In this document: positions 6,397 through 40,667 of the stretch, one piece after another
How the letters are laid out: every line of letters begins with the position of its first letter
How positions within the stretch are numbered: position 1 is the first letter of the stretch
Assembly: GCA_016748015.1 (NCBI GenBank)
Contig: JAAOMT010000303.1
Span: forward strand, 248,001 to 312,000
Length of the DNA: 64,000 nt
Direction of reading: 5' to 3'
DNA from: Geosiphon pyriformis uo1
Lineage: Eukaryota; Fungi; Glomeromycota
Notes under the pieces: model-generated
Databases searched by the model: none
What the model saw: the letters and a program-made list of their open reading frames with translations, nothing else
Told to the model about the DNA's origin: nothing
Translations under genes and position numbers: made by a program

Positions 6397-8452
6397 ATAC
6401 TTTAATATTAAGTTTTAATCAAAAACAATTGGCTTTTTAAAGCCAATATAAACTTAGATTAAAAAACCCAAGAATTAAAAATTTTATACCAAGAATAAAA
6501 TACTAAAGTATTTGTTATTTATAGTATCTTTAACAAATAATTTAGTTTTAAATTCAAAGATAAAAAAAAATTAATTACCAAAACTTACATAATACTTAAT
6601 TTTTGGTTAAATTAAGCTAAAAAAACACAACAGTTATTTGAAATATCTATACTTTAATTAACATTATTATGGCTTAAAAATACTAATTAACAGTTAATAT
6701 TAATAAATAAATAAACTAATAATTAATATATTTCTTATTCAAAATCATAACTACAAAAACAACCAGCCTATATTTTACTTAAATATAAGAATTATAATAA
6801 AAAGCTTTTATCTATAAAAACTTATATATTATCAAAAAAAAATAGAAAAATTGTATTTGCTATTATTGTAAAACTTATTACAAAGAACAATTTGGCAGTC
6901 TTAAATATAGCAAAAAATAAAATAAAATATCTTATTTTATATATAAAAAATTGTTATTAGAAAAATACAATTGAATTGATATTACAATAATAAAAAAAGT
7001 TTGCAATTAAATCTGTCAATATGTTTTCTTTATTTCTAAGAAAATAAAACAAGAAATACTATTTACAACAATCTATTATAATGTTTTTAATAAATTCTAT
7101 TATTATCTATACAATGCTAAAATAATTTATAAACTTAAAATAGTCTTGATCAACAAAGAAACCCAAACAAATACTTACCAAATAAAAAAACAGAATATAT
7201 TAAATACATTATAAAATTAGCAGAATTCAATTATAAAAATAAAGTAAAATTCTACTACTTAACTTTTAGTTATGTTTATTTTTTCAAAAAAACCCAAATT
7301 TAACAATTGGAACAAATAAACATTTAACTGTATAAAAAATACATTATATTTTGTGATAATATATAGTGTCTTAAATTTTATGTTTTCAATATATTATTAC
7401 TTACTAAAAATAACCAAAAAAAATTAAATTTAAAACACAAAAAATGCAATCAAAAATCTTAATAATTTCAATTTATCTTGTTAAAAACTAAACTGTTTTA
7501 TAATTCAAATACTTTAACAACAATAGACAAAAAATCAAGCCAGAAAAAGTCCATAAAATTAATACAAAATACAATTTTTAATATTTAGAAAAAAATATTC
7601 TTATTTTAAAACTAAAATTACTTACAAAAATCAACCTCAAAATTGCTCTTAAAATTTTATTAAAAGCAATAATACAAATTGTTTTTCACTTATTATTAGC
7701 AAGCAAAAAAATTAATGTTAGAAAAAAAATAATTAATGTAAAATATACTAAAGATATTATAATAATGTTTCAAAATAAAACCAAAAAACTTTTCAAAATT
7801 GAACATATTAAAAAAATTATTCAAGCTATTTATTTACTTTTAATCAACAATTCGAGTCTATAATTAATTAAAAATAGAAATGAATTAGGCAAAAGTAAAA
7901 AAAAATTCAAAATTTGAATCAATTAAACAATTTACAGTTCTAATAAATATAATTTTTAATATACAAAATAAATTTTACTAAATTCTTAGATTACCAAGAA
8001 CAATTACTATTCTATTTTTTGAATAAGTTTGTAAAGCATACATTTATTTAATACTTATTATTATTCAACAAATTTTGAATTTAATAAAAAAATTTGCAAA
8101 AAATATGGAATTTAATTTCAAATATTTATTTGTCTAAAAAAATCAAGGAATTTAACATTACATTTTACAACTCCAATAATTATTTTATTATATTAAATAA
8201 CCATTTTAAATCAAAATTATTTACAATAATATCTTTTAACAAGAATTATTACAGAAAGTTTCAAATTTACAGAAATAATTAAATATTTTTTTCCAAAATT
8301 TAACTCAATTTTTATTACCAAAAACTATTATATTATTATTAAAAAATTATTTCAAATTAATATACAGACATATTAACAAAAAATAACAATAATCTTGAAA
8401 AACTAATTTGGTTTAATACTAAATTTATACAAAAAATATCAAACCAAAATGC
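6397..8452 (+). mobile_element. Left part of an older, heavily eroded Gypsy element (end of PR, Cys-rich region, dUTPase, start of RT)
   Basis: Translates to relics such as NNWL..ANINLD (PR) and KINLKIALKILLKAIIQI...KIIQAIYL (dUTPase, ~7540-7930). The frame YTKNIKPKC|QQTYQ continues at 18672 once the inserted element is removed. Confidence 0.8.
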
Positions 8453-9312
8453 TGTTATTCATAGAAAAATGGGTATAAGAAAAGTAGTAGAAAAAACTAT
8501 ATAAGAAAATAGACCAATAGAAGATTAGTATTTAACATGTAAACACATTGCTTAGCAATATGGAACAATGTCAGAAATCATGCCATATTGCTTAGCAATA
8601 TGGAGCAAGATGAAGCAATGTTGAAAATTAGGACACATTGCTTAGCAATGTGAAACATTGTCAGAAAACACAGCACATTGCTCAAAAAATTATAGCACAT
8701 CACTCAGAAATGTAAGCAATCTTATAGAACCCAAATTATATATATATAGTGATAATATTAGAAGCAGAAAAGACAGACTTCTGAAGTTTAAATTTGATCT
8801 AAGCAATCTTCTAACATAACAATTATCTAATAAATCATTATTTTCTATCTCAATTTATGCTCCACTATCAACATCTTATGTTAATAGTAATTGATACTTA
8901 ACCACACTGAAATAATAGCTCTTGATCACAGCTATTGACAGGATACTAATTTGTCTATTACCTTGGTTTATTTTTTTATTTTATTTTATTTTCTTGATTT
9001 TTATTACTAATTCTATTGAGAATTAATATGCAGGGTACTAACGTCAGGATATAGCACTGGTAAAAGACCCAAGAATAAGGGTAGGACACTTGATTGAGAA
9101 TAGCTTACTAGGAGGAATACCAGCCATCAAGCTGAGAAAAAAATTGACAAAACTGCGGTTTCGAGAAGCTATGGATAAAACTATTACAACTGAATCTCTG
9201 TCCATTATACAAAAGACTCAACCAAAACCTTCAGATTTCTATCATTGACAACTTTGAGCACCAAGTTATGGGTTTGTTATTTCTTTACACACCCAACAAA
9301 TCACCTGTAACA
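8453..9312 (+). repeat. 5' LTR (family B)
   Basis: TGTTA...TAACA; aligns with 17765-18667; contains CCAAT and TATA-like TATATATAG. Confidence 0.95.
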
Positions 9313-9314
9313 TT

Positions 9315-9331
9315 TGGTGCTTTCTGTAAAG
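9315..9331 (+). promoter_or_regulatory. Primer-binding site (mutated TGGTGCTCCCTGTGAGG)
   Basis: TGGTGCTTTCTGTAAAG, 2 nt after the LTR. Confidence 0.85.
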
Positions 9332-12300
9332 TATAATTTTACAAAGAACCAGTACCAACAACCATCATCCAAAAGTGGCAGAATCAGAAATTATAGGAGC
9401 AAACCATTTAGAATTTGCCAAAGCCTTGTTTCAGCAGTACAGCCAACAATTAAGATTAAACAACAACCATTATCCAACAAAATCTGCTTTCAACTTCTAC
9501 ATCAATGATAAAATCACAGACTGCTTAGGAAGAACAGTTAACATTGAATCCACAAGAAAAAATTTCTATACAGAATTATTTCAACATACCAGCTTACTAA
9601 GAAATTACAGTTTTGCACCAATCATCAAGGAAATCAATCAAACTATTGAAAGATACACACAACAACAATTCCCAATCACCTATGCAGACAAAAGAAAGGG
9701 AAAACTACAAACCCCAACAGTGATACCAAAGGAGATCCAACCACTTATTTGGAAGAAACACAGAGTTGAATCATCTACAAACCCATTATATCATTATATT
9801 TCTGGAAGTGCCATCAATATTGCATTAGCAGATGCATCTACATCAAACATGACATCAACATTTGGATAATTTCTATTTCAAAGTAAACAAAGGAAAACAA
9901 AACTATTAGAATCATATGACAAATATTTTGAAGAATTTAAATTGCAATTGCCAATGCCATCAGGAATCTGATTACCACTACCTCCACCAGATTTCAGAAT
10001 AGCCAATTCATAGGAACCAACCGAATCAGAAAAAGAACAAGAAAAAGAAAAAAAAGAAGAAGAAGAAGAAGAATCTGAAGATCAAGAATTCACTTACCAG
10101 AACCTGATTACTAAAAACCCAGATATTAAAACTCTGGAATTTTAGGCTTAGCAAGATCAAAATCTAGAAAATCCAGGAATCAAAACTCCATCAAAACAGA
10201 ATGACTGAAACCCCAACTTAATTAATCAACAAAAATTACCTCTGAATATTGTTATCAATTAGCCACCAACTGAACCAATTATTGAACTGATTCAACAGCA
10301 GCAAATACTTCTTCAACAGCCACCACTATAGCCAATTATCTAGCAACCAGTTTAGCAGCCACAACAACAGCTTTAACCACCAGTACAACAACAATAATCA
10401 ATCACACTAATGGCTTTTGCACCAATTACAAAACTTGAAAAGTTTACCAGTGAAGAGGACAATGCCTAGGCATGAATCAATAACATTGCCAAAGCCATCA
10501 CCACAAATAATTGAGATGATACAAAAACAATACAAGTTATCCCATATTTTCTAAAAGATACCACTAATTCATAGTATTATAGCTTGGCCCAAAAACCTTA
10601 AAATTTTAATGCATTTAAAATAGAATTCCTAAGATATTTCAGTAATAATAACAACATTAACTGCCTGGCAAGTACTTTCACCACCATAAAACAAAGGGAC
10701 ATAGAAGCAGTCACCACTTACTTGGAATGCTTCTACAGAAATCTGTGCCAAATTCAAGCTATCCAAGCTGACTATTTTACAGCATCACAAATCTTAAATC
10801 AGTTCATCAGAGGCTTATATAGTAGCATCCTCTAACAAGTATGTCCAATGCATCTGGTAGACCTTCCTACTGCAGTCACTCATGCTAGAAATTTTGAAGC
10901 TGCTAAGTTAGAAGCCAACCACACCCAAGCTGTAAATTTAGTAATGAATAGATCATCTAACTTGAATTCCAATTAAAACAAATCAGTAATTCCATCAATC
11001 AAAAAATTGAGGGATACTTAGCTAATACTAATCAGCCCATTTATCAACCTCTACAATGATGCAATAATCAAGAAAACACCAATCATTTCCAAAATTAATC
11101 ATGTCTCTCCACATCCTCCAATTAGTCATGACAGCCAGAGATGCATGTCTGCCACAACTGTGGTAAACAAAATTACTTTAGAGCTGACTGCCAAGTTTCT
11201 AATAACCAATGATTAAGAAATCAATATCGAAGCCCCAATCGAAGATTTCAAACTCCAAACAATTACACCTATCAGGATCAATATCAATCCACTTACCTGC
11301 ACATATCAACTGCCAATATATCAACCAACTGTCTATCAACCACAACCAGCAACAATTTATCAGCCACAGCCCCAAGCAATTTATCAATCACAGCTGCAAA
11401 TAATTTATCAAACAGCCACAGTTTCAACACCACCACCAAACTCCACTCAGGTGATACCAAGAAACCCCAGATTCAGACTCACTTAAAACTAGAGATTGGT
11501 GATAATAGTCCACCAACCAATCTCCAGTTCATCAAACCCACAATTAGGATCTTGTTAACAAAATTTGGAAACTGGGTACACACCAAACCCGAATTCCCAA
11601 TACTATTTAAGTCTCTTGGTTACTTCAGAAAACACTGCCTCCTACAACCTGGAACCCAATAAAACCCAAAGGCTTACCAACAACATTCCACTAGCAACTA
11701 TCTCCAACAATGAATTATTAGCCGCAATTTTCCCATTTGAACTTGAAGAGCCATTAGTAACCCCTCTATTTAGTGGAGCTGCCCTTGAAGAGAAACCCAT
11801 CACTGCCATGTACACTAATGCCAAAGTTGATGGTCAGTCCATCAAACTAATCTTAGATAGTAGATCAGCTGGCAGCATTATCACAAGACAACTTATGGAC
11901 CAATTAGGTTGCCAGGTTAATCAAACTGCCAGCGCATGCATTATCACAGTTGATGGAGTGACCAAAACTCCAATTGATGAAATTGATAACTTTCCGATTG
12001 AGATCAATGGCATTACAATACTCATCAAAGTTTTTGTGATAGAAGCCACTTAGTACCAAGCTCTCGTTGGTAATAATTGGCTGTTCAAAACAAATGCCAT
12101 ACTTGATTAGACAATGCAGGAACTCCAATTGAGCCAGAATAGTCAACATACTCAGATACCAGCAGTATGTGGCTACTTTAAGCCAAACAATTCACAATTA
12201 CTAATCAAATTCAAGGAAGAAACAAAGAAACCTATCTGAGAAGCTTATTAAGTTTTCTGGGCCGATGCCGACCACAACAAACTACCACTAATACTCTTCT

Positions 12301-15300
12301 GGAATGATGAAAGGAAAAAAAAACAAAGAGAAAAACATACCTGGAGAACCACCATTGATGCATGGACTGATAATAACCAAAGCAAGTTATCACTGATAAT
12401 AAGCTGAGAGAAAAAAGAAAAAGGAAAAGAAAAAGAGGAAGAAAACAGCTCTAAAGAAGCCACCACCAAAAAAATCAATAGTGGCTGGACAAGTTCATAC
12501 TCCATTCACCAGTCATTGCCACAACCACTCTATATTTCACTTAAATACAAAGACTGTGAGAAAAAACTCTCTTCTATGGAAGCATAGATTGCGCCAGACA
12601 AGAACCACTGGACATGAACACATTATTACTGCAAACCATGCCATCATGAACGCTATAGATATTCAAAGTGCCAAGGAAAGTGGGACAATAAACCATGTCT
12701 TGCTTGTGGCAAACAATTGCTCAATAAAGGAATATGGAATGACATTCCTGGTCGAGAAAGAATGTGCGATGCTTTATGCTAGTACACGATCCTTATTAGC
12801 AACTGGATAAGTTGTGGTACGCCCATAACAGCAGCCTGACACTAAGCACTTGATCACTTAGATGGTTACTCACATGACAAAGATGAGATCTGGCAGATGG
12901 CAAATGCCAAAGTTAAAGGAACCACGCCTAGTGAAATACTGAAAATTAAGAACAATCCCTCTGAACTAGTCAATATTATTTGCATTCCCAACTCAGATGC
13001 TTTCATGGATAAGAAAACAGATCCAGAAGACTTCCACAAATATTACCAAAATTTGGCACCAATAAGAGAGGAGCAAGAGCAGTGGTTAGAGCAACTAAAT
13101 ACCTGATTATGTGATCACTGTTTGATTCCATGTGACTTTCAGTATTGTAATGAGTGTGACCTCATTTACAATCTACCAATCCGCATGATCTACACAATCT
13201 CAGAGGAAAAAAAACCAATCAGCAACTGTGCATCAGAATCAGAATCAATTTTTGATCCCAACTCAAACTCCGACAACAATGATAACAAAAACACTAGTTC
13301 TAGCTCCATTCAATATGGAAATAGCGATTTGAACTCAAATTCAAACCCCGAAACATTTATAGTACTCTCTGATCTCACCAAAAAGCAAGAGTTAAAGTGG
13401 TTCAGTGACAATAATGAAGGTATCATGTCAGAACATGCACATAATACTGATGCAGAGTTTGATCTAAGATATCCTGGAAAAGATGCCATCAAATTGAAAC
13501 CACATTTGCACACTTGCATAGATCTGAAAATTGTCATGAAAATACTGGCAACTATAATGGTTCAATTAGCTTCTAGAAATAGTTTAGTGAAAAAGAGAAT
13601 CCACATTAAAGGAGAAATAATTGATGCAGAATATGTAGGAAATATCATTGCTATGCTACAAAATGATTTAAAAAAGACTTATATCATAGAACCAAATAAA
13701 AAGATAGCACAGGCAATATTCCTGCCTTTGGTCAAAATATTTCAGTTAGTGTCAGTAGAAAACAGGGAAGAATTAAGGATGACAGCAAGAGGGATATAGG
13801 GATTTGAATCAATGAGTAGAATAGAGATACCAGTTAATATGGCCAAAAAAGAAGTTATTGACAAGGGAGAAATTATCTTCACCTGTCAATCAATTTCTAT
13901 TCTACCATATGACTAGTATATAGTAGTAATAAAAAGGAAAATGAAAGATTAGAACCAGATTTTTGAAGCAGAAGCAGCACTTTGTAAATCAGGAGAAATT
14001 GGACTCATCAATCTATACATACCAGCCAAGAACTATAGCCACATCAAAATTCCCATCTACAACAACACCAGAAAGATTGTAGAAATACCAAAAGAAATCA
14101 TCATAGGACATTTAATTACTGAAATAGAAGACCAACCACCAAACCCCATTCCAGATTTTTCACAGCTTTGTGGATATGTTGACATTATATCACAAACAAT
14201 ATATAGACAAAATGAGTGCTATTTGCTCCAACCCAAACAATTGGAACAAATAAACATAAGGAATTTAGACCCACTCCAATGCATACAGTTGAAGATGTTG
14301 CTCAATAAGTTTAATGACATTTTTGCCAGTGAGAATGAATTTGGCAGAACTAACATCATCCAGCATTAGATCAAAACTGGAGATGCTATGCCAATAAAAC
14401 AACAAACATACAGAGTACCACCCACCAGCCATGAGATTATTCATCAAGAAATCAACCAGATGCTCGACAACAGGCTAATTCAGCCATCAATGAGCCCATG
14501 GTCATTATCAGTAGTACTTGTCCATAAAAAGAATGGAAAGATCCGATTTTATGTAGACTACTGGAAACTCAATAGAGTAACTCGTGGAGACAGTTATCCA
14601 ATTCTATGGATCCAGGAATTATTTGACACTTTTGGTGAAAAGAAATAGTTCTCAACATTAGACTTAGACAGTGATTATTGGCAAGTAGCCATGGATCCAG
14701 AAGATAAAGAAAAGACAGCTTTTATGACAAGAGAAGAGAATTTTGAATTTAAAGTTATGCCATTTAATTTGACCAATGCACCAGCAACGTTTCAATGGCT
14801 AATGAAAATAGTATACATAAGCTTACTATGGAAATCAGTAGTAGTCTATTTGGATGACACCAACATATTTTTAAAAACATTTGATGATCATCTCTATCAT
14901 CTACAGCAAGTGTTCGAAAGACTCAAATGAGTAGGATTGAAACTAAATGCTACTAAGTGTTACTTTGGCAAGACAGAGCTAAAATTCTTGGGACATGTAG
15001 TCAGCCAAGATAGAATCAAAATGGATCCAGAAAAGATAGAAATAGTCAAGAACTTTTTAGTATTAACCAATGTGATGGAGTTAAAATCATTCTTGAGATT
15101 TGCAGACTATTATCGACACTTTATCAAAAACTTTTTTAAGATAGCCCAACCACTCAATCATCTTCAAACCAAGAATGTGAAATATGAATAAATAGAAACA
15201 CAACAAAAAGCATTTGATATTCTAAGAAGAAAGCTTATACAAGCTCCAGTATTAATTTATCCAGATCACAACAAACCATTCATTATTACCACCAATGCAT

Positions 15301-15650
15301 CAGGCCAAGCATTAGGAACAGTACTATTACAGAAAAGACTGGATGGAAGAGAACATCCAGTCACATATGCCAGCCAAGATTTAACTCCAGCTGAAAGAAA
15401 TTATAGAACACCAGAATTAGAACACTTGGCAATTTATTGGGCAATCATAAAATAGAGTGAATACTTGAGCCAGAAGTTTGATGTATACATAGATCATAAG
15501 GGATTAACAGCACTTCATAAACAGGAATTTGAAGACAGAAGACAGTCAAGATGAAAAATGGCACTATCACCATATACTTATACTATACATTATAAAAAGG
15601 AAAAAGACAACGGAAATGCCAATAGTTTGTTACGAATGAGACAAATCTAA
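9330..15650 (+). pseudogene. Gag-protease-Cys-rich-dUTPase-RT-RNaseH polyprotein, interrupted by stops
   Basis: ORF-track fragments at 9375, 11565, 12897, 13122, 14388, 14691 and 14937 are all in one frame. Motifs: CHNCGK knuckle, LILDSRS, FNLTNAPATFQ, VYLDDT. Ends LLRMRQI*. Confidence 0.92.
13390..13820 (+). pseudogene. dut: Trimeric dUTPase domain within Gypsy pol
   Basis: DAEFDL / ASRNSL / GEIIDAEYVG / KIAQ / RGI*GFESMS correspond to dUTPase motifs I-V. Confidence 0.9.
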
Positions 15651-15680
15651 AAACATTTCAACCCAAAAATATAACAAAAC

Positions 15681-17063
15681 ATGAATATACAAAAATACTA
15701 ACAACTTTAACATTATATAAATACTCAATTGTTCAAGGAGAAATTATCTCAAAAAGAACAAAACAATATAAAACAGCAGTCAAAACATTTTATCAATCAC
15801 CAAAACATACTATACTGAAAAAACAGAAAAAATCTAGATCAACCAACCAAAGTAATTACAGAACCAGAAAAGGAGACAATATTGTTTAACATGCATTCAG
15901 ATCCAACAGCAGGACATTTTTATAAAGAAGCAACAATGAAAAGAACCAAAAAAAGATACTATTGGCCATCAATGTATCTAGATATTATTCAATATATTTA
16001 AAATTGTGATGCTTGTCAAAGAAGAGGAGAAACAAAACCCAGTGAACCATTAAAACCAATCAAAGTGAAACAACTATTCAATCACATTAGAATTGACTTA
16101 GTCAGACCATTAACAATCACAAGTAGAGGCAACAGATATATTGCAGTAGCCATGGATTATCTTACAAAATGGCCAGAAGCAAAAGCCATTCAAAGAGCAA
16201 ATGCAGAATCCATTGCCAAATTTGTTCATCAAGATTTGATCTGCTAATATGGATGTCTAAAAAAACTATTATCAGATCAAGGAACTCACTTTGTGAATAG
16301 AACATTGGCAGAATTAAGTCAAAAATTTGGGATAAAAAGACCATTATTATCACCATACCATCTACAAACAAATGGATTAATTGAAAGATTTAACAGAACA
16401 TTGTGTAAAGCCATTGCCAAAATCAGCCAAGAAAACCAAAACAAATGGGACTTGATTATACCATTAGTATTATTTGCTTATTGAACAATAAAATAAGACA
16501 CTACACAAGCAACACCATTTGAATTGGTATATGGTAGAACAACAATATTACCAGTTGAGATAGAAGTCAACACATATCTAACTGAACCAATAACTAAAAA
16601 AAATTTCTAAGAAACATTGTTAAGAAGAACATATGACTTAATAGAAACTCTAGAAAACAAATGGCAAAAAGCAGCTGACAATATTCAGAAGTCACAAGAG
16701 AAACAAAAAGAAAAGCATGATAACCAACTACCAAAGAAACCAGTAGAATTCAGGATTGGAGACAAAGTACTTCTATATTGTACCAAAGCAGAAAAACAAT
16801 GGAGTAAAAAATTTGACCCCAAATAGGATGGACCATTTCACATAGAAGAAATTATGAGAAATAGAGCTTATAAATTAAGATTGAACAACAAAATCTTGAC
16901 AAAAGCAGCACATGGAGATTGACTAAAACCATATTACAATATAGCATCATTACCCACCAGTAATATTCCACAATTAGAAGTACAAAGAATACTAGTCCAA
17001 TTAGATGAGATTCTATGAGATTTAGAACCAATTATACTCATTAAAACAAATACGTCAACCTGA
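15681..17063 (+). pseudogene. Integrase ORF (HHCC-DDE-GPF), separately initiated
   Basis: ATG at 15681; MHSDPTAGHF...CDACQ; IDLV; SDQGTHF; QTNGLIERFNRTL; DGPF; 461 codons to TGA; no chromodomain seen. Confidence 0.9.
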
Positions 17064-17116
17064 CCTACTGAAAAACTATATAAGAAACCAAAGTATGCAA
17101 CAAAGACAACAGAAAA

Positions 17117-17752
17117 ATGGAAATTCCAGACCACATTTATCAACTTGCTCAACAATTATTTCAAGCTGTAAATTAACAACAGCTAAACATGGAAATTGTT
17201 ATTAACCACCAAACAATTTGTTATTGAAACACTAAGAAAAAGACAAAAAATATGCCATATCAATGACTACCAAAGAATAACAAAAACTGGTCAGACAAAA
17301 TTGTTAAAAAAGTAAAACACACTTTTAAAAAGATATTCATCACAGATCCAACAGAACAATTAACAAAAGAAAATTAGAAACAATAGACAGAACAACTTCC
17401 AATAGCATACTATTACTATCAGTTGGGTCAAAAAGTAAATATTCAGAAGTTGTATCTTAACAAATCCAAGAGAATATTTAACCAAAACATCATACAACAA
17501 ATCAAAGAATTTATCAGAAAGAAGACAAATGCAACATTACACATTAGAACAATTTACTAACTACATGCCATATTTCAGAATTACTCCGAAATACTGTTAC
17601 ACTTCAACATGGAGACAATAACTATCAACCAATGGGGAAGAATAAACAACACACAAGTCAAAAACATGCAAGCCAAAATTGAACAAACAGTACTTGAAAA
17701 AGAAGTCTTAGACTTAATTCAAAATGAAAATTTTAATAGAGCTCAATATTAA
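17117..17752 (+). pseudogene. Third ORF (unknown function) between integrase and PPT
   Basis: MEIPDHIYQLAQQLFQ...ENFNRAQY*; homologous to 39054-39701; ATG-to-stop distance is a whole number of codons. Confidence 0.75.
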
Positions 17753-17764
17753 AGGAAAAAATAA

Positions 17765-18667
17765 TGTTACTCATAAAAAATGGGTATAAAAAAAGTAGTA
17801 AAAAAACCATATAAGAAAATAAACCAATAAGAGATTAGTATTTAACACATGAGCACATTGCTTAGCAATGTGAAGCAATGTTAGAAATCATGGCACATTG
17901 CTTAGCAATGTGGAGCAAGATAGAGCAATGTCAGAAATTAGGACACATTGCTTAGCAATGTGAAGCATTGTCAGAAAACACGGCATATTGTTCAGCAATG
18001 TGAGCATTGTTCAAGAAATCATAGCACATTGCTCAGAAATGTGAGTGATCTCATAGAACCCAAATTATGTATATATAGTGATAATGTTAAAAGTAAAAAA
18101 GACAGACCTCTGAAGTTTAGATTTGATCTAAGCAATCTTCCAACATAACAATCATCTAATAAATCATTATTTTCTATCTCAATTTATGTCCCACTATCAA
18201 TATCTCATGTTGATAGTAATTAATACTTAACTATACTGGAACAATAGCTCTTGATCACGGCTATTGACAGGATACTAACTTGTCTATTGCCTTGGCTTAT
18301 TTCTTTATTTTATTTTATTTTATTTTATTTTCTTAATTTTTATTACTAACTCTATTGAGAATTAATGCACAGAGTACTGATGTCAGAATATAGCACTGGT
18401 AAAAGACCCAAGAATAAGAATAGAACACTTGATTGAGAATAGCTTACTAAAAGGAATACCAGCCATCAAACTGAAAAAAAAATTGACAAAACTGTGGTTT
18501 TGAGAAGCTATGGATAAAACTATTACAACTGAATTTCTATCCATTATACAAAAGATTCAACCAAAACCTTTAGATAAACACACCTTCAGATTTCCATCAT
18601 CGACAACTTTGAGCACCAAGTTATGGATTTGTTATTCTCTTATAAACCCAACAAATCATCTGTAACA
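17765..18667 (+). repeat. 3' LTR (family B)
   Basis: TGTTA...TAACA, preceded by a purine tract and followed by TSD ATGC. Confidence 0.95.
17854..18043. repeat. Five copies of palindrome CACATTGCT-N-AGCAATGTG at 40-50 bp spacing in LTR U3
   Basis: Copies start at 17854, 17894, 17944, 17984 and 18025; an equivalent array lies at ~8544-8720. Confidence 0.9.
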
Positions 18668-18671
18668 ATGC

Positions 18672-21300
18672 CAACAAACTTACCAAGTTTTATTTAAAAA
18701 CCACCAATTTATTTAAAAAAAAGTTTGATACATATTTAACAATAAGCTTATTTAACTATTAATAAGTCTATGAGCTTTATTAGTGGTTAAAAAAAATAGA
18801 AAAATCTGTTTTTGTATTAATTATTGTTAATTAAACAGTATTATAATTAAAGATGTTTATTTTTTATCCAAAATTAATAATATGCTAGATGTTTTTAACA
18901 AATCAAAATACTTTTTAATATTAAATCTAGAAAATGAATATTATTAAATTGTTATGAATTTCAAAGACTGTTCAAAAACAACTTTTACTATCCAAAAAAA
19001 ATTATAAGTTCAATATAATGTTTTTTGAATTATGTAATATACCAGTAATATTTTAAAAACTTATAAATATTACCTATGTTGAATTTTTTTAGCAGTTAAT
19101 AATTGTTTATCTTGATAATATTAATGTCTATTTATCATTATTTAAAGCTTATTTAGTTTACTATAAGAAGTTTTTTAATAATTATAAAAAGCAAAATTAA
19201 AGTTTAACATCAAAAAATATTATTTTAGAAAGATTAACTTGGTCTTTTACAGTTATATTGTCAATAGAAAAGAAGTTAAATTTGATTCAGAAAAAATTGG
19301 TGTGATTAAAAATTTTAAAATCTTTTAAAATACTACCAAATTAAAAAAATTTACAAAATTAATATATTATTATCAAAAATTTATTAAAAAATTTTCTAAA
19401 ATTGCTAAATCACTAAATTACTTAACTAATAAAAATATAGAATATAAATAGACTTTGAAATAGCAAAAAGTCTTTGATATCTTCAAAAAAAACTAATAAT
19501 AACTTCAATTTTAGCTTACTCTGATTTTAGCAAAAGATTTTAACTGGTTATAAATACTTTATACACAGTTTTTAGTGCTATTTTATTTTAATTAAATAAT
19601 AATAACAAAAAATAAATAATCATTTGTGTTAATAAAACATTAAAACCAACAGAAAAAAATTATTTAGTTACTAAATTAAAAACAACAAAAGTAATTTGGA
19701 TTTTTTATTATTTTAATCTATATTTTAAATTTAGAGAAATTAATAATATTATTAATAATATTAAATTTAAATGGCTATAAAACAAAAATTCCAAATTAAA
19801 TACCAAACAAACTTATTAAAATAAATTTTAGCAAACTACAAATATGTTGTATATGATAAATTAAAAAAATTACACACAATATTAATTGTTTCTCTAAAAT
19901 AAAACAAGATTAAAAATTACAATTACTATTTAATTCAATTAACAATAAATTCTAAAAATTATAACAATCTTAAACAATACTTAAAAATACTTATTATACC
20001 AGAAATTTGGTCTTTTAGTAAAAAAACATTAATTATAATACCAAATAAAACAATGTTTCTTATATAACAATTTTATTTATTACTAAAATTACAAAATTTA
20101 AACAATTTATTTAGAGTAATTTAAAAACATAAAAAAAACAATTTTATATAACATGTATTTAAATTTCTTATTAGCACATTTTAAAAAAGATAGTAAAATC
20201 CAAAAAACATTAAAATACTATTTTTGATCTTAAATAAAAAGAAATATTTATTAATATATTAAATTTTATAATAGTTATCAAAAAAAACACATTTTATAAA
20301 GCTCTTAAATTCAATTAAAGTTGGACAACTTTTTGATTAAGTTAGTATTAATTTAATAAAACCATTATTTATCACAAATCAAGAAAACCAATATATTGTA
20401 ATTATAGTAAATTATTTGACAAATGGCCCAAAGTCAAAATAATTTAATAAAATAATATAAAATCAATAAAAAATTTTATCTATAAAGATATTATTTGTAA
20501 ATATAAATGCTTAATTGAATTTTTATTTGATTAGAAAACATATTTTATAAACAACTTAATACAAAAAATTTGTAAATAATTTAATATCAAAAAACTTTTA
20601 TCTTTATTTTACTATTTACAAATAAATAATTTGTAAAATGTTTTAATAAAACACTTTATAAATCATTAACCAAGATTTTAACAGATTTTGAGCAAGAATA
20701 AAATCTTTTTATTCTATTAACTAGTATATAAAACACTAAAACAAGATATAATAAAACATATATTATTTAACCTAATTTATAATAAAACAGTAATATTACT
20801 AATTAATTTTACAATAAAACTCTATTTAGTTTAATTAATTACAGAAAACAATTTTCAAAAAACACTATAAATAAAAAATTATATATTTTTTAATATACTA
20901 AAAAATAATAATAAATTACAGTTAATTATATAAAATATTCTTAAACTTAAAAAAAAAACAATAAAATGAAAAATTTGATTATAAATAGAACAAATTATTT
21001 TATATATACAAAATTCTAAAAAATAGATTATACAAGTTAAAACTTGATAATAAGGTTTTAAAAAAAATTGTACATAATAACAGACTTAAACATTATTATT
21101 TCAAAACCAATCATGAACTCTTAATTTTACAATTTGATATACAATTTTTCTTGGTTAATTTTGAAGATATTCTTTAAAACTTAAAACCAATAGTTATTAT
21201 TAAACAATTTCTAAATCTGAATATTTAAAATTATTTTATTTTATTTTACACTTATTTAATCAAAACAATTCTACCAAAAATATTTAAAAATTACATAAAA
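18672..21300 (+). mobile_element. Right part of the older eroded Gypsy (RT, RH, IN relics)
   Basis: Relics: KICFCINYC*LN, VYLDNIN, FSKIKQD*, YLTNGP-like IN segments; extremely AT-rich. Right end approximate. Confidence 0.8.
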
Positions 21301-30403: not shown

Positions 30404-31274
30404 TGTTACTCATAGAATATAAAAAATATATTAGCACATGAAATAGCCAATCAGAGGTAGCCATAGTAAATGTGGAATCTCAAGATTCCTCTCAAGAGAA
30501 ATTGCAGGATTTCAAGAATTTCAGGATTCTCCATGCAAGGAATCGCAGGATTCCAAAATTCCAGGATTCCTCTCAAAAGGAATTGCAGAATTCCAGGAAT
30601 TCCAAGACTCCTGAAGTAAAGAATTGAGAAATCTCAATTATGTATATATAGCAGTAGTGTTAGAAGTAGAAAAGGCAGAATTCTCAGTTAGAAAACCTCT
30701 CCATTTAGATTTTATCTAAGCAACTTTCCAAATCACAAATATTAATAAATAATTATTTACTATCTCAATCCACTCTTTACTATCAACACTTTATGTTGAT
30801 AATAATTGATACTTAACCATACTGGAACAATAGCTCTTGATTATGGCTATTGACAGGATACTAACTTGCAATTGCTTTTTGTTATTTTCTTTAATTTCTT
30901 TTCTTTTCTTTTCTTTTTTTTGTTATTTCTTTGGGTTTTGCTAAAAAATTGATTAAGGATTAAGTGCTGAGATACAAACATCATAAAGACTGGTAAAAGA
31001 CCCGTGAAAAAAAGGGTAGAACACTCATAGATTTGAGGATAGCTTACCAGGAGGATTACCAACCACCACGCTGAGAAAGAAATTTGACGAAACTGCAGTT
31101 TCAGGAAGCTACAGATAAAACCATCAATTAAATCTCTGTTCATTATACAAAGGACTCAACTCAAAAGCCTTTAAATACAATCAATGTACCAGTGTCACCA
31201 GCCTTGTCAAGATATTGAGCACCAAGTTACGGATTTGTTATTTGATTTGAGACCCCAAATAATCATCAGTAATA
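30404..31274 (+). repeat. 5' LTR with GGAATTCCA/GCAGGATTC tandem array
   Basis: Aligns with 39716-40593; CCAAT box near 30448; TATATATAG near 30643. Confidence 0.95.
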
Positions 31275-31276
31275 TT

Positions 31277-31293
31277 TGGTGCTCCCTATGAGG
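31277..31293 (+). promoter_or_regulatory. Primer-binding site TGGTGCTCCCTATGAGG
   Basis: 2 nt after the LTR; one mismatch to the family A PBS. Confidence 0.9.
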
Positions 31294-34200
31294 TATAATC
31301 CTACAGAGAACCAGTACCAACAACTAATTAACAGTGGCAGAATCAGAAAGTATAGGAGCAAACCATTTAGGATTCGCAAAATCCTTATTTTAATACTACT
31401 GTCAACATTTGGAATTAAATCACAATCATATATCAGCAGAATCAGCCTTCAATTTTTACGTCAATGAGAGAATTGCCTATTTGTTAAGGACACCAGTAAA
31501 CACTAAATTAGTGAGAGAAACTTTTTACCATGAATTAATACAAAACACCAGCTTACTAACAAATCATAATTTTACATCCATTATCACTGAGATTAACAAA
31601 GAAATTGAACATCATGCACAACAAAGATACCCAATCACCTACTTAAGTAAAGGCAAAGAAAAACTACAAACACCAGCAGTAACACCTCAACAGATCCAAC
31701 CACTCACTTGGAAGAAACACAGAGTTGAATTATCTACAAATCCATCATATCATTATACTCCGAAAAACACCATTCATATCACATCACCAAATGCATCCAC
31801 ATCAAATGTGACATTACTATTTGGACAATTTTTATTCCAAAGTAAACAAAGAAAAACAGAATTACTAGGCCCATATGACAAATATTTTGAAGGATTTTAT
31901 TCACAAACACCAATGCCATCAGGAATTTGATTACCACCACCTCCACCAGATTTTAGAATAGCTGATCTATTAGAAGCATTAGAATCAGAAGAAGAAAGAA
32001 AATCTGAGGATCAAGAATTTACTTACCAGAATTCAATTCCAGAAAACCTGGAAGTTGAAACCCTAAATGTTCAAACTCCGAAAAATTCAAATCAAGAAAA
32101 TCTGAAAACCGAAACTCTGAATATTTGAACACCATGGAATCAGAATATTCTAAACCCCAATTCAATCAATCAACCAAACTTACCTCCAAATATTGTCATT
32201 GATTACCCACCAATTAACCCAATAGCACAACCATTACTTCAACAACCAAATCAGCAAATTCAACAGCTGCAACAACAACTTCAACCATCTGTTCAACAGC
32301 AACAACCAAATGTAGACCCAATAGCATATGCACCAATTGCAAAACTTGACAATTTCACTGGTGAAGAGGACAATGCCCAAGTATGGCTAAATGATGTTGA
32401 GAAAGCCATTACTGCAAATGGATGGAATAATGCCAGAGCTCTTCAAGCAATCCCATACTTTCTTAAGAACACTGCCAATTCCTGATATCAGAGCCTGATC
32501 AATAAACCCCAGGACTTTAATGTATTTAAACTAGAGTTTCTAAAATATTTTAGTAACAATAATAGTATCAACCAATTGACAAACACCTTCACCATTATCA
32601 AACAAAGAGACATAGAAGCAGTTACCACTTACTTGGGATGCTTCCATCAAAATCTATGCCAAATTTAAGCAATTGACGCCAACTATTTCACAGTGCCACA
32701 AATCCTAAACCAATTTATTAGAGGTCTGTGCAGTAGTATCCTCCAATGTGTATGTCCAATGCATCCAGCAGACCTTCAAGCTGCAGTTACCAATGCCAGA
32801 GATTTTGAAGCAGCTGAACTCGAAGCTAATCATGCTCAAGCTGTTAATCTAGTGATGAATGGATCATCTGAATTGGATTCCAAATTGAAACAATTCAGTG
32901 ACTCCATTAACCAGAAGCTTAAAAAGTACTTAGCTGACAATCACGCAATTTATCAGCCATCTCAACAATGCAATAATTTAGGAATCACAAATCGCTCAGA
33001 AAATCAGTCGCATTCCTCATCATCTGCTAATCAGCCATGGCAACAAGAGACGTGTATCTGCCACTATTGTGGTAAACAAGGACATTTGAGAATTGATTGT
33101 CAGTTAAAGATAGAAAATCAACGATCAGGAAATCAATATTGAAATCCTGATCACTAGTTCTCAACTCCGAGATATCAATCAAATACAGAAATATATTAAC
33201 CAAATTACATACTTATGATACAGCCACAAATTTATCAGCTGCCAATTTATCAGCCAACAGCACCCATCATTTATTATCTGCAGCCCCAACCCATTTATCA
33301 GCCATAGCCTTAGGTAATCTACTAGCCGTAACAAATTCAAACACCACTGCAGAACTTACCTTAAAACAGAACTCAAAGGCCAAGATTAACACAGCAAAGC
33401 TGGAGATCATCGATGGTAGTCCATCAACCAATCCCCAGTTCTACAGCACAATCATCAAGTTCTCAACAATGGAATTCAGGTACCAGTTCCACCCAAAATC
33501 CGAATTCCCAACACTATTTAAGTCTCTTGGTTACTCCCGAAGATGTCACTTTTTACAACTCAGAATCTAATTAACAACCAGTACTTACTAGCAATATACT
33601 TCTGGCCACCATTACCAATGACAAAACATTGGCTGCCATATTCTTTTTTGAACTCGAAAAAACCACAATGATACCACTATTCAGTAGAGCCACCTTAGAG
33701 GAAAAACTCATCACGGCAATGTACACTAATGTGAAAGTTAATGGCCACTTCATCAAACTGATCCTAAACAGTGGATCAGCTGGCAGCATAATTACCAAAC
33801 AACTTATGGACCAATTAGGTCACTGAGTTGATTGCACCACCAGTACCAAGATCATAACTGCCAATAGAGCAACCAAAACTCCCATTGGTAAAATCAATGA
33901 TTTTCCTTTTGAAGTCAATGGCATTATTACTCCCATCAACGTCCTAGTTATGGAAACAACCCAATATCAAGCATTAGTAGGCAACAATTGGTTATCCAAA
34001 ACTAATGCCATACTCGATTGAACCACTCAAGAATTACAATTCAGTCAAAACGGTTGACACACACATATACCAGCCACATATGGCCATTTCAAGACTACCA
34101 ACTCAACAACCCCACTTATCAAGTTTAAGGAAGAAGAAAGGAAACCAACATGGAAAGCATATCAAGTCTCATGGGCTGATGAAGACCACAATGAGCTGCT

Positions 34201-37200
34201 GCCAATACTATCATGGGATAACAATGGAAAGGGAAAACAAAAAGAAGAGCTTACCTGGAAGACTGACAATTTGACCTGGACCGACAATGACGAAAACAAG
34301 CCAACACCAAACTGGGAATAAAAAGAAGAAAACAATAAAAGAAAGGGAAAAGAGAAAGAAGAAGAAACAACAACCACCAACACCACTTCTTCTAACTCCT
34401 ACATTTACCCTACACCACCACAATCTATTTATTGTTGACCAAAACTTATATGCATTGATTGTGGCAAGAAATTGTCATCAATAGGCGCATGCTGTAGCAA
34501 CGATGAGGAATATGCAATGGCAACCAAATTCTACTGCCATGCATGTGTCATAGAAAAGTTTGGATGATCAAAGAAGCAAGGAAAATGGAACAACCAACCT
34601 TGTTTCGCTTGTGAAGAAACTCTCTTGGATGAAGGAATGTGGAATGACATTTTAGAGTGAGAAGGAACATGTGACAAATTATGCCAATACACAATTCTAA
34701 TTAGCGACTGGGTAAGGAAAGGAACACCAATAAAAGCAGCCTGGAGAAGAGCAGTACAATGATTGGACAGTTGTCTATACAATAACAATAAGATTTAGCA
34801 AATGGCACTCACAAAAATAGAAAGAGCATTACCTGAGAAGATCAGAGAAATTAAAAACAACCCACCAGAACCAATAAAACTTGACTGGAATTCAGAACCA
34901 GTCATAAACCTATTGGAATTGAAAGAATTTCACAAATATTACCAATGTTTGGCACTTACCAGAGAAGAGCAAGAACAACAGCTAGAACAATTAAATGCCA
35001 GATTGTGCCACCATTGTTTAATTTCCAGTAATTTTGAATATTGTAATAAGTGTGATTTCATTTACAATCCACTACTACACATAATCTACATGATCCTGGA
35101 AAAAAAAAAACCAATCAGTAGCTGTACATCGGAATCAAAATTAGTTTTTGATCCCAATTCAAATCCCAACAACAACGACAACAAAAACACCAGTTCCAGC
35201 TCTGCTCAAAATGGCAACAAAAATATCAGCAATTCAAACTCCAATTCAAACCCTGAAATATATATTGCACTTTTTGATCTATCTAAGAAGCAGGAACTCA
35301 AATAGTATAGCAACAATAATGAAAGTATCATACTAGAACACATGCATAATACCAATGTAGGGTTTGATCTGAGATATCTGGGAAAAAAAGCCATCAAATT
35401 GGAACCAAATTTTCGCACTTGTATTGATTTCAAAATAGCTCTGGAAATTTCAGCAACAACCATGATCTAATTAGCATCTAGAAGTAGTTTAGTGAAAAAA
35501 AGAATCAACATCAGAGGAGGAATAATTGATGTGAGATACATAGAAAATATCATCACTATGCTACAAAATGACTCTGAAAAAACCTATATCATAGAGCCAA
35601 ACAAAAAGATAGCACAAGCAATATTTCTACCTTTGGTAAAAATAGCCCAATTAATGTTAGTGGGAAACAGAAAAAAATTAAGGATTACTGCTAGAGGGAT
35701 ACAGAAATTCAGATCAACAGATAGAATAGACATATTAATTAATATGGTGGAGGAAAAGATTATTGACAAAGAAGAAATTATCTCAACCCATCAATCAATT
35801 TCCATTTTGCCATATGACCAGTATATATTAGCCATAAAAAGGGAAGTAAGGGATCAAGCTCAATTGTTTAAAGCAGAAGCCACCATTTGTGAATTAGGAG
35901 AAATTGGACTTACTAATCTATACATATCAGCCAAAAGCCCCAAAAATATTAAAATTCCCATCTACAACACAACCAGAAGTGTTATTGAAATACCAAAAGA
36001 AACCATCATTAGATATTTAACCACCAAAGTTGAGGATCAACCACCAAACCACATTCCAGATTTTTCACAGCTTTGTGGATATGTGGATATTACATCACAA
36101 ACTATCTATGGAAAAGGTAAATGTTATCTGTTCCAGCCAGAACAATTGGAACAAATAAACATGGGGAATCTAGATCCACTTTAACAGATGCAACTCAAGA
36201 TGTTACTCAACAATTTCAATGACATCTTTGCCAGTGAAAACAAATTTGGCCAAACCAATATCATTCAGCATCAGATCAAGACTGGAGATGCAATGCCAAT
36301 AAAACAAAAAGCATACAAAGTATCACCAGCTAGCCATGAGATCATTTGTCAAGAAATTAACTGAATGCTTGACAACGGGCTAATTCAGTCATCAATGAGT
36401 CTATGGTCATCACCAGTGGTACTAGTCCAGAAGAAAAATGGGAAAATCCACTTTTGTGTAGACTACCAGAAACTAAATAGAGTAACAAAAGGTGATAGCT
36501 ATCCAACTCCAAAGATCCAAGAGCTATTCAACGCTTTTGGAAGAAATAAATGGTTCTCAACACTGGACTTAGATAGTGGTTACTGGCAAGTAGCCATGGA
36601 TCCAACTGACAAAGAAAAAACAGCATTCACCACAAGAGAAAAAAATTTGAGTTTGAAGTCATGCCATTTGGCTTGATGAATGCTCCAACAACATTCCAAT
36701 AGCTTATGGAAATTGTCTATACTAGATTACTATGGAAATCAGTAGTTGTATATTTGGATGACACCAATGTGTTCTTAAAAACATTTGATGATTATTTGCA
36801 TTATTTCCAACAAGTATTTAAAAGATTAAGAAGAGCTGGATTGAAGCTAAATGCAACCAAATGCTTCTTTGGAAAAACTGAACTCAAGTTTTTGGGACAT
36901 GTAGTGAGCAAAGATGGAATCAAAACAGATCCAGACAAGATTGAAGTAGTTAAGAACTTTCCAGTACCAACCAACTTGCCAGAACTAAGAACATTTTTGG
37001 GATTCGCAGGTTACTATCACCACATCATTAAGAACTTTTCTAAACTAGCTTAGTCACTTTATTATCTACAAACCAAGAATGTGAAGTATAAATGGACTGA
37101 AGCTTAACAAAAAGCATTCGACACATTGAGGAGAAAGCTTATTCAAGCTCTAGTATTGATGTATCCAGATTACAACAAACCATTCATCATTATTACTGAT

Positions 37201-37554
37201 GCATCAGGTCAAGCATTGGGAGCAATATTATCACAGAAAGGACCTGATGGAAGAGAGCATCCAGTAGCTTATGCCAGTAGAAGTTTAAGCCCAGTGGAAA
37301 AAAACTATGGAACTCCAGCACTAGAACACTTAGCAATCTATTGGGCTGTTATCAAATGGAGAGAATACTTGAGCCAAAAATTTGAAATATATATGGATCA
37401 CAAAGAATTGACTTCAATTCAGAAACAAGAATTTGCAGACGATTGCGATGCCAGATGGAAAATAGAACTTTGACCATTCAACTATACAATACATTACAAA
37501 AAGAGAAAAAACAATGAAAATGCTGATGGTTTGTTGTAAATAAGACAAATATAA
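31292..37554 (+). pseudogene. Gag-protease-Cys-rich-dUTPase-RT-RNaseH polyprotein, interrupted
   Basis: Fragments at 31409, 32693, 33629, 34802, 35492 and 36365 share a frame, with one homopolymer frameshift near 36640. Motifs: CHYCGKQGHLRIDC, LDLDSGYWQ, VYLDDT, TDASG. Ends ADGLL*IRQI*. Confidence 0.92.
35295..35722 (+). pseudogene. dut: Trimeric dUTPase domain within Gypsy pol
   Basis: NVGFDL / ASRSSL / GGIIDVRYIE / KIAQ / RGIQKFRSTD. Confidence 0.9.
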
Positions 37555-37615
37555 AAACATTTCAACCCAAAAATATAACAAAATTAAACCAAACCCAATA
37601 AAAATATAACAAAAG

Positions 37616-38992
37616 ATGAATACACAAAAATACTAACAGCTTCAACACTATATAAATACCCAACAGTTCAAGGAAAAGTTATCTCAAAAGAAACAAAATA
37701 ACATTAAGCAACAATTAAAATATTTTATCAATTATCAAAATATACTTTACCAGAAGAATAGACAAAATTCAGATCAACCAACCAGAGTAATTACAGAGCC
37801 AGAGAAAGAAACAATACTGTTTAACATGCACTCAGATCCAACAGCAGGACATTTTCACAAAAAAGCAACCATGGAAAGAACCAAAAAAAGATACTATTGG
37901 CCATTAATGTATCCAAACATTATCTAATATGTTCAAAATTGTGATGCTTGTTAAAGAAGAGGAGGAACAAAACCCAGTAAGTCATTAAGACCAATCAAAG
38001 TAGGACAACCATTTGATCATATTGGAATTGATTTAGTCAGACCATTAACAATTACCAGCAGAGGAAATAGATATATTGCAGTAGCCATGGACTAGTTCAC
38101 TAAATGGCCAGAAACAAAAGCAATTTAAAGAGTGGATGCAAAATCTGTTGCCGAATTCATTCATCAAGACTTGATTTGTTGACATAGATGTCCAAAAGAA
38201 TTATTATCAGACCAAAGAACTCACTTTGTGAACAGAACACTAACAGAATTGAGCCAAAGATTCGGAATTAAAAGGCCACTATTATCACTATATCATCCAC
38301 AAACAAATGGTTTAGTTAAAAGATTTAATAGAACATTGTGTGAAGCAATCACCAAACTTAGTCAAGAAAACCAGAACAAATGAGATTTGTTCATACCATC
38401 AGTACTATTTGCTTATTGGACAATGAAGCAAAATACTATACAAGCAACACCATTTGAATTAGTATATGATAGAACAGCAATAATACCAGTTGAGATAGAA
38501 GTCAACACATATCTAATTAAACCAATAACAGAAGAGAATTTTCAGGAAACATTGTTGAAAAAGACATATGACTTAATAGAAACACTGGAAAACAAATGAA
38601 AAAAAGCAGCTAATAATATTCAAAAGTTACAAGAAAAACAGAAAGAAAGACATAATAGTCAACTATCAGACAAACCAGTTGAATTCAAGATTAGAGACAA
38701 AGTACTCTTACATCATACCAAAGCGGAAAAACAATGGAATGGAAAATTTGACCCCAAATGGGACAGACCATTTTACATAAAAGAAATTCTAGGAAATGGA
38801 GCTTATAAATTAAGATTGGACAGCAAAATTTTGACAAAAGCAGCACATGAAGATCGACTGAAACCATACCACAATATAGTGTTACCATTTATTAGTAACA
38901 TTCCACAATTGGAAGTACAGAGACTATTAGTTAGACCAGATGAGATTCCATGAGATTTAGAACCAATCATTGTTATCAACACAAACACATAA
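37616..38992 (+). pseudogene. Integrase ORF, separately initiated
   Basis: ATG at 37616, out of frame with RT-RH. MHSDPTAGHFH, CDAC, HIGIDLV, YHPQTNGLV; 459 codons to TAA. Confidence 0.9.
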
Positions 38993-39053
38993 AAGTGATC
39001 AACCAAAAAGAATATATAAAGACATGGTAGATGCAACAAAAGATATCAGAAAA

Positions 39054-39701: not shown

Positions 39702-39715
39702 AAAAAAGGAAATAA

Positions 39716-40593: not shown

Positions 40594-40667
40594 ATGCATA
40601 AATAAATAAAAAATAAAAAACCATTTTATGAAAAAAAAACTGAACCTTAAAACAACAAATCTTATAT

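What the first reader, a model, noticed from the sequence alone, without database searches (positions are those of the whole stretch)
13390..13820. Complete five-motif dUTPase between protease and RT in three Gypsy copies
Copies lie at 13390-13820, 35295-35722 and (eroded) ~7540-7930. Reverting transitions gives DAGFDL / RSSL / GGIIDAGYVG / KIAQ / RGIQGFGSTG, i.e. motifs I-V of trimeric dUTPases. Established: retroviral dUTPases sit before PR (betaretroviruses), between RH and IN (non-primate lentiviruses) or after IN (ERV-L). A PR-dUTPase-RT position in a fungal LTR retrotransposon is atypical and suggests independent capture. It may limit uracil incorporation during reverse transcription in dUTP-rich dormant cytoplasm (inference).
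Basis: partly seen in the sequence, partly recalled or inferred. Interest (0 to 1): 0.8.

Follow-up and report, generated by a model that had tools for sequence, protein, structure and literature searches.

The report
Dead fungal retrotransposon with doubled dUTPase
Three mutation-wrecked copies of a fungal jumping gene carry a dUTPase domain between protease and reverse transcriptase, a layout already published for other fungi, rotifers and flatworms, and directly behind it lies a second, motif-less domain predicted to have the same fold, which is likely an older relic shared with many animal retrotransposons.

Summary
Copies 1 and 2 hit PF00692 (E 4e-14, 2e-15), in frame between PR and RT of full-length Gypsy elements. 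Copy 3 belongs to another subfamily and is split by copy 1's insertion. No copy is complete: the five motifs appear only as column majorities of 240 Geosiphon pyriformis relatives, and 0 of 172 fully covered ones keep all 23 key residues. The position is not atypical: it is published for Postia, rotifer and planarian elements. The domain belongs to a wider lineage with intact metagenomic members and was under purifying selection. It lacks the motifs, is predicted to have the dUTPase fold and resembles a PR-RT spacer in 62 of 107 dUTPase-less Gypsy polyproteins. Best reading: an active dUTPase captured once beside an older dead one. This scan found the same layout before on other DNA, once with the second fold. 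No activity or trimer was tested.

The parts
8453..18667 (+). Element 1, full-length decayed Gypsy LTR retrotransposon, target-site duplication ATGC
   Evidence: LTR ends and flanks; domains
8453..9312 (+). 5' LTR of element 1 (85% identical to the 3' LTR)
9315..9331 (+). Putative primer-binding site beginning TGG, 2 nt after the LTR (primer tRNA not tested)
10401..10901 (+). Gag capsid region
   Evidence: PF03732 E 1.6e-6
11799..12155 (+). Aspartic protease
   Evidence: PF13975 E 6e-7
12540..13166 (+). Cys-rich region of unknown fold between PR and dUTPase
   Evidence: no Pfam hit; shared with P0296 and L002; transversion pN/pS 0.31
13392..13820 (+). dUTPase domain, copy 1 (motif III Asp kept, stop in motif V)
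   Evidence: PF00692 E 4.1e-14
13842..14141 (+). Second, motif-less domain, predicted dUTPase fold, copy 1
   Evidence: spacer profile E 2e-8; 66% identical to copy 2 over the region
14250..15650 (+). RT and RNase H, same frame as Gag, PR and dUTPase; stop after RNase H
   Evidence: PF00078, PF17917, PF17919
15702..17000 (+). Integrase (H2C2, core, SH3-like); no chromodomain hit
17051..17746 (+). Decayed extra ORF of unknown function
   Evidence: 43% identical to the ORF of element 2; no Pfam hit at cut-off
17765..18667 (+). 3' LTR of element 1
30404..40593 (+). Element 2, full-length decayed copy of the same family (LTRs 30404-31274 and 39716-40593, 91% identical), target-site duplication ATGC
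35297..35725 (+). dUTPase domain, copy 2 (motif III Asp kept, two stops)
   Evidence: PF00692 E 1.7e-15
35747..36043 (+). Second, motif-less domain, copy 2 (the sequence that was folded)
   Evidence: AF2 pLDDT 86; fold searches
7471..7908 (+). dUTPase domain, copy 3, heavily eroded, other subfamily
7913..8210 (+). Remains of the second domain of element 3
   Evidence: tblastn with same-subfamily P0396
6406..8452 (+). Left part of element 3: weak PR remnant, Cys-rich region, dUTPase, second domain, start of RT
18668..21156 (+). Right part of element 3 (RT, RNase H, integrase), resuming after element 1

Best explanation
These are dead copies of a fungal Gypsy retrotransposon family whose Gag-Pol frame carries a dUTPase domain between protease and RT that likely destroyed dUTP during reverse transcription while the family was active, followed by a motif-less domain predicted to share the dUTPase fold and likely older than the enzyme beside it. 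Shown: the domain order Gag-PR-Cys-rich-dUTPase-second domain-RT-RNase H in one frame; all five motifs in the family's column majorities and in intact relatives; purifying selection on both domains before decay; strand-symmetric, transition-dominated decay after integration. Inferred from retroviral dUTPases: the protease releases the domain, three copies form the enzyme inside the particle, and dUTP is turned into dUMP and pyrophosphate, keeping uracil out of the cDNA. Because the domain shares the Gag frame, it would be made at about Gag levels. Inferred history: an old dUTPase lost its catalytic residues and stayed as a PR-RT spacer in many Gypsy lineages. One RT clade, likely of soil fungi, then captured a new working dUTPase just upstream, and its descendants kept both, one or neither.
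For: PF00692 hits and E. coli dUTPase alignment over all five motifs. Intact relative P0296 has the same order with all five motifs and no stop; 5 of 9 PR/dUT-RT relatives match all five patterns and 9 of 9 keep the motif III Asp. L002 has Gag to RNase H in one 2018-aa ORF. Transversion pN/pS between elements 1 and 2: dUTPase 0.13 (p 4e-6), second domain 0.23 (p 0.002), PR 0.09, RT 0.18. Changes not explained by C>T/G>A: 23 of 5030 cells in motif columns against 567 of 25174 elsewhere. LTR differences: 85 of 88 and 66 of 69 are transitions, on both strands. Second domain: profile A3 hits only dUTPases or dCTP deaminase among the named PDB hits (29 hits at E<=10, best 1.8e-6); the top 22 VIA-align rows are dUTPase-fold proteins, Z 10.3-6.5, next 5.5. 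It is far closer to animal-type spacers (96%) than to dUTPases, including its neighbour (3%). All 16 PR-dUT-RT rows lie in one 51-row RT clade (SH-aLRT 96) with spacer-only elements outside it. P0405 carries the spacer before RT and an unrelated dUTPase after RNase H.
Against: No activity, expression or oligomer was measured. The lineage's own second domains alone barely match dUTPase profiles (probability 3% and 0.6%, scores 19.3 and 14.7 against shuffle maxima 16.5 and 14.3). The fold call therefore rests on the link through animal-type spacers, which make up 42 of the 47 rows used for folding. 32 proteins of the same RT clade with both PR and RT lack both domains, so neither is essential. 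The dUTPase monophyly is 92/92, below the starred level, and biased by how rows were collected. The RT tree is a quick tree rooted at the midpoint. The cells counted are not independent.
Confidence: 0.68

Rival explanations
1. The second domain arose by tandem duplication of the family's own dUTPase and then lost its motifs, as in herpesvirus two-domain dUTPases (recalled); the animal-type spacers are separate relics.
For: The two domains are adjacent and in frame in all three copies and in P0296, and both have the dUTPase fold.
Against: The second domain matches animal-type spacers at 96% (E 1.8e-9) but the dUTPase alignment, which holds its own neighbour, at 3%. Spacer-only elements lie outside and around the dUTPase-bearing clade. 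P0419 in the same clade has the spacer without a dUTPase.
Confidence: 0.14
2. The active dUTPase was captured several times, or swapped as a module, among related fungal elements, so the Geosiphon family holds its own capture.
For: The label needs 5 changes on the RT tree. PMC2864245 says fungal elements seem to have gained dUTPase independently from different sources. P0405 shows a separate capture.
Against: The 35 element dUTPases form one side of a branch (92/92; 94% of bootstrap trees). Starred RT branches force only 1 change. No nearer cellular or viral donor turned up: PDB scores are flat at 66-46 bits and phage matches reach at most 44% identity among the 25 of 1009 listed.
Confidence: 0.12
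3. The first domain was never an active dUTPase in this family: either a dCTP deaminase-like protein or a structural module that merely kept the motifs.
For: Weak PF22769 (DCD) hits. Non-enzymatic dUTPase-related proteins exist in retroviruses (BIV; PMC4531489).
Against: DCD scores are below cut-off for the window copies, 15.6-18 against 27, while PF00692 gives 49-57 against 22. Motif V and the motif III Asp are kept in intact relatives, and motif columns are the most constrained.
Confidence: 0.06

Closest known systems
PosPlaTy3-5 of Postia placenta; dUTPase-bearing elements of Phanerochaete chrysosporium and Tuber melanosporum Tmt1 (PMC2864245, passages read; the Tmt1 and Phanerochaete papers seen only as citations)
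   Same: Fungal Gypsy element with a dUTPase; in PosPlaTy3-5 it lies between PR and RT.
   Different: That paper surveys chromodomain-bearing elements; no chromodomain hit was found here. Here the host is likely a glomeromycete, a Cys-rich region precedes the dUTPase, a second dUTPase-fold domain follows it and the integrase seems to be a separate ORF. Shared ancestry of the dUTPases was not tested.
Juno, Vesta and TelKA LTR retrotransposons of bdelloid rotifers (PMC5408684, passages read)
   Same: dUTPase between PR and RT as a lineage trait; extra third ORF; an extra Zn-binding motif nearby in Juno.
   Different: Animal host; in Juno the Zn knuckle follows the dUTPase, whereas here the Cys-rich region precedes it; no second fold is mentioned in the passages read.
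Burro/GYPSM1 of planarians (PMC6431247, section 7 read) and the PNMA-family ancestral metavirus (PMC11011659, passages read)
   Same: A 'dUTPase-like' (Burro: between PR and RT) or 'dUTPase' domain found by profile or structure methods in animal Gypsy elements.
   Different: Reported for single lineages, with no statement in the passages read on whether the motifs are intact. These may already be examples of the dead spacer fold described here; not tested.
Retroviral dUTPases of betaretroviruses and non-primate lentiviruses (PMC4531489, passages read)
   Same: Polyprotein-embedded homotrimeric dUTPase with five motifs; loss impairs replication in non-dividing cells and raises G-to-A changes.
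   Different: Different position in the polyprotein; EIAV and FIV enzymes score no better than bacterial or yeast ones against this lineage.
Herpesvirus dUTPase-fold proteins without activity (HCMV pp71, gammaherpesvirus ORF10; rows, loss of activity recalled)
   Same: dUTPase fold kept after loss of the catalytic motifs.
   Different: Large stand-alone viral proteins; here a 100-residue module inside a retrotransposon polyprotein.

Membership tests
Homotrimeric dUTPase (PF00692), first domain | Pfam match above the curated cut-off | tested here: met
   Copies 1 and 2: 52.9 and 57.4 bits against 22. Copy 3: 14.3, below cut-off.
Homotrimeric dUTPase (PF00692), first domain | Five motifs in order in the family's parental state | tested here: met
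   Column majorities of 240 relatives; all five patterns in 5 of 9 intact relatives.
Homotrimeric dUTPase (PF00692), first domain | Five motifs intact in the window's own copies | tested here: not met
   17 of 23, 17 of 21 and 4 of 15 key residues; stops in all three.
Homotrimeric dUTPase (PF00692), first domain | Catalytic Asp of motif III | tested here: met
   Present in copies 1 and 2, in 201 of 240 relatives and 9 of 9 intact relatives; Asn in copy 3.
Homotrimeric dUTPase (PF00692), first domain | Trimer formation and dUTP hydrolysis | not testable with these tools
   Needs an enzyme assay; no complex was predicted.
dUTPase-fold superfamily, second domain | dUTPase beta-fold | tested here: met
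   AF2 pLDDT 86; Foldseek top rows all dUTPases, TM 0.61-0.72; VIA Z 10.3, rmsd 4.8 over 95 and Z 10.0, rmsd 3.4 over 93. The alignment was 42 of 47 animal-type spacers.
Active dUTPase, second domain | Motifs I-V | tested here: not met
   No PF00692 hit for the window's second domain. The only invariant column is an Asn outside the motifs. The PDB match spans about 80 residues and stops before motif V.
dCTP deaminase (PF22769) | Pfam match above cut-off and better than dUTPase | tested here: not met
   15.6-18 bits against cut-off 27 for copy 1, none for copy 2; in intact relatives PF00692 always scores higher.
Ty3/Gypsy LTR retrotransposon (Metaviridae) | TG...CA LTRs, target-site duplication, Gag, order PR-RT-RNase H-IN | tested here: met
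   the 5' LTR of element 2 ends TA, one transition from CA.
Chromovirus clade | Chromodomain after the integrase; RT placement | tested here: inconclusive
   No chromodomain hit in decayed element 1; RT lies apart from plant and algal rows, but no named fungal chromovirus was in the tree.

The most novel reading that the evidence does not exclude
A catalytically dead dUTPase fold is a standard, unannotated module between protease and RT across a large branch of Gypsy retrotransposons (sponge, coral, pseudoscorpion, frog and this fungal family), kept under purifying selection for a structural job such as trimerising or spacing Pol. Working dUTPases in this slot are later recaptures, and this family preserves both layers side by side.
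Probability: 0.45. Interest if true: 0.65.

Novelty: new variant of a known kind. Interest (0 to 1): 0.38.

Why it matters
The claimed novelty, a dUTPase between PR and RT, is already in print, so on its own this is a new member in a new fungal group. What matters more is the second domain. If the PR-RT spacer of many Gypsy elements is a dead dUTPase, dUTPase was present early in that branch rather than being a rare late capture. An overlooked conserved Pol module with a testable structural role would then exist in elements from fungi to frogs. The intact metagenomic relatives give natural sequences with which to test the uracil-exclusion role, which PMC2864245 calls unclear for retrotransposons.

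Tried and rejected
No whole genome is held for the window, so genome-wide copy number and the host's own dUTPase were not examined. Donor search failed: viral contigs gave no relative with the decayed profile or L002 and two non-element hits with A2; prokaryote genomes gave none and the A2 scan could not run. Uracil-driven G-to-A hypermutation during reverse transcription is rejected as the cause of decay: LTR pairs, identical at insertion (established), differ by A/G and C/T alike (47:38 and 41:25), with CpG hit hardest (16 of 22, 18 of 28). My first iterative spacer profile drifted into real dUTPases and was discarded; one search excludes proteins with a dUTPase hit. A two-domain AF2 model from lineage-only sequences was uninformative (pLDDT 46). 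A homotrimer prediction for the second domain was never run because the queue was full. One planned alignment of intact dUTPase domains was not made, so no PDB profile search of them exists. ESM Atlas gave only unnamed clusters for the second domain (best 0.90) and nothing above 0.82 for the Cys-rich region. No RNA holder was listed. Rfam gave no match in the window. Paper searches found nothing for Geosiphon plus dUTPase or 'inactivated dUTPase' plus retrotransposons; searches listed no title on a dead spacer fold. The dUTPase tree in the supplement of PMC2864245 is an unreadable .DOC and bears on the origin question.

Full report
Observation. Read with stops as X, window 13392-13820 and 35297-35722 match Pfam PF00692 at E 4.1e-14 and 1.7e-15, above the curated cut-off; 7540-7932 gives E 0.035, below it. 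Copies 1 and 2 lie in frame between an aspartic protease and RT in two full-length elements, 8453-18667 and 30404-40593, each with LTRs and the same 4-base target duplication ATGC. Copy 3 is real: it scores E 6e-38 on a lineage profile and groups with another subfamily. Its RT resumes at 18668, right after element 1, which inserted into the RT N-terminus. No copy is complete: 17 of 23, 17 of 21 and 4 of 15 key residues survive, and all have stops.

Family and host. A search with copy 1 returned 209 proteins and a profile search of longer proteins 421; the 120 listed in each are all Geosiphon pyriformis hypothetical proteins. The window is therefore likely from that fungus or a close relative; I did not match it exactly. 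PMC11952901 (passages) gives 41.2% of that genome as LTR sequence. LTR pairs differ almost only by transitions (85 of 88, 66 of 69), on both strands and most at CpG. The decay is therefore post-integration; cytosine deamination is my inference.

Selection. Using transversions only, which decay hardly produces, elements 1 and 2 give pN/pS 0.13 for the dUTPase (p 4e-6), 0.09 for PR, 0.18 for RT and 0.06 for integrase. The enzyme was maintained while the family replicated.

Wider lineage. The 50%-cluster search found further subfamilies and undecayed relatives. P0296, from an unnamed metagenome record, has PR, Cys-rich region, dUTPase with all five motifs, second domain and RT in one ORF. Eight more polyproteins have the dUTPase directly upstream of RT, and 12 of 28 metagenome loci are of this kind; L002 runs from Gag to RNase H in 2018 codons. 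Their dUTPases and the window's form one side of a branch (35 against 13 rows, 92/92; collection was biased towards this). All 16 PR-dUT-RT rows lie in one RT clade of 51 (SH-aLRT 96) that also holds a Rhizophagus irregularis protein (two long rows dropped, P0395 and element 3's RT). In that clade 32 proteins with both PR and RT have neither domain. No donor was found.

Literature. A dUTPase between PR and RT is reported for PosPlaTy3-5 of Postia placenta, with Phanerochaete and Tuber elements cited as earlier dUTPase carriers (PMC2864245, passages). It is also reported for all Juno, Vesta and TelKA families of rotifers (PMC5408684, passages) and for planarian Burro (PMC6431247, section 7). 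PMC2774666 and PMC11011659 (passages) mention dUTPase in fungal chromoviruses and in one vertebrate metavirus. Function by analogy comes from PMC4531489 (passages): five motifs, catalytic Asp in motif III, essential C-terminal motif, need in non-dividing cells.

Second domain. The 100 residues after the dUTPase have no Pfam hit but are conserved (pN/pS 0.23). A profile seeded with five lineage copies found, after iteration, a PR-RT spacer in 62 of 107 polyproteins that lack a dUTPase hit; the best reversed-sequence control was E 0.7. The spacer ends 17-78 residues before the RT hit, and named carriers are Ephydatia, Acropora, Cordylochernes and Pseudophryne, while 0 of 11 Tanacetum, Chara and Haematococcus rows have it. 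The 47-row alignment A3 (window copy 2, 4 lineage domains, 42 of the 55 distinct full-length spacers) hits 29 PDB sequences at E<=10, best 1.8e-6. Of these, 27 are named dUTPases or dCTP deaminase or are the FIV dUTPase chain, and two carry uninformative names. The AF2 model of the window's domain has pLDDT 86. Foldseek's listed rows are all dUTPases, and VIA-align's top 22 are dUTPase-fold proteins (Z 10.3-6.5, next 5.5). Against this, lineage domains alone match dUTPase profiles at only 3% and 0.6%; the link runs through the spacers (96%, then 93-95%), and a lineage-only model failed. The domain lacks the catalytic motifs.

How it most likely worked. Shown: one frame from Gag to RNase H, both domains under selection, motifs intact in the parental state. 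Inferred: the protease frees the dUTPase, it trimerises in the particle and removes dUTP so that RT inserts less uracil; sharing the Gag frame would make it abundant. The second domain is probably an older dUTPase that had already lost activity. It resembles spacers of distant elements far more than its neighbour, and spacer-only elements surround the dUTPase-bearing clade. P0405 shows the same pattern independently, with the spacer before RT and an unrelated dUTPase after RNase H. Its job is unknown; a structural or trimerising role is my guess and was not tested.

Novelty and verdict. The finding as posed is a known layout in a new host group, seen only as dead copies. The tandem of an active-type and a dead fold, and the breadth of the dead spacer, did not appear in my paper searches. 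However, most subscription papers are not searched, and the 'dUTPase-like' domain of Burro may be this very module. Earlier notes of this scan reached the same verdict on other DNA, and one already saw the second fold; my reading was formed before that look-up. Class: new variant of a known kind; interest 0.38.

Noticed in passing
window:8449-8452, 18668-18671, 30400-30403, 40594-40597: Both full-length elements have the same 4-base target-site duplication ATGC (2 of 2), hinting at a sequence-specific integrase.
   Followed up: partly
window:15650-15702; 37550-37637; L002:8478-8488: The reading frame stops after RNase H and the integrase appears to start as its own ORF; in L002 its ATG overlaps the stop. 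Agrees with note e1-7557141.
   Followed up: partly
window:17051-17746 and 38949-39680: Extra ORF between integrase and 3' LTR, 43% identical between the two elements, no Pfam family at cut-off, not alignable to the extra ORF of L002.
   Followed up: partly
window:12540-13166, 34448-35068, 6843-7390: Cys-rich region with several CxxC pairs between PR and dUTPase, shared with P0296, L002 and P0385, conserved (pN/pS 0.31), no Pfam or atlas match; likely binds zinc (inference).
   Followed up: partly
window:9315-9331 and 31277-31293: Primer-binding site starts TGGTGCT. From memory it fits the 3' end of elongator tRNA-Met (untested). A 9-base complement also lies inside the LTR about 55 bases before its end, so self-priming or a U5 hairpin is possible.
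   Followed up: no
window LTR pairs 8453-9312/17765-18667 and 30404-31274/39716-40593: About 96% of LTR differences are transitions, and non-CpG cytosines are also heavily hit; CpG observed/expected 0.13-0.17. Suggests strong methylation-linked or RIP-like decay in this fungus.
   Followed up: partly
window:230-4200 (minus strand): Another Gypsy element with PR, RT, RNase H and integrase but no dUTPase or spacer hit.
   Followed up: partly
window:~28900-29674, 42331-42780, 44850-45420, 25284-25407: Solo or fragmentary LTRs of the same family, two of them on the minus strand.
   Followed up: no
P0405 (metagenome protein): Gypsy Pol with the dead spacer before RT and an unrelated, motif-bearing dUTPase after RNase H.
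   Followed up: partly
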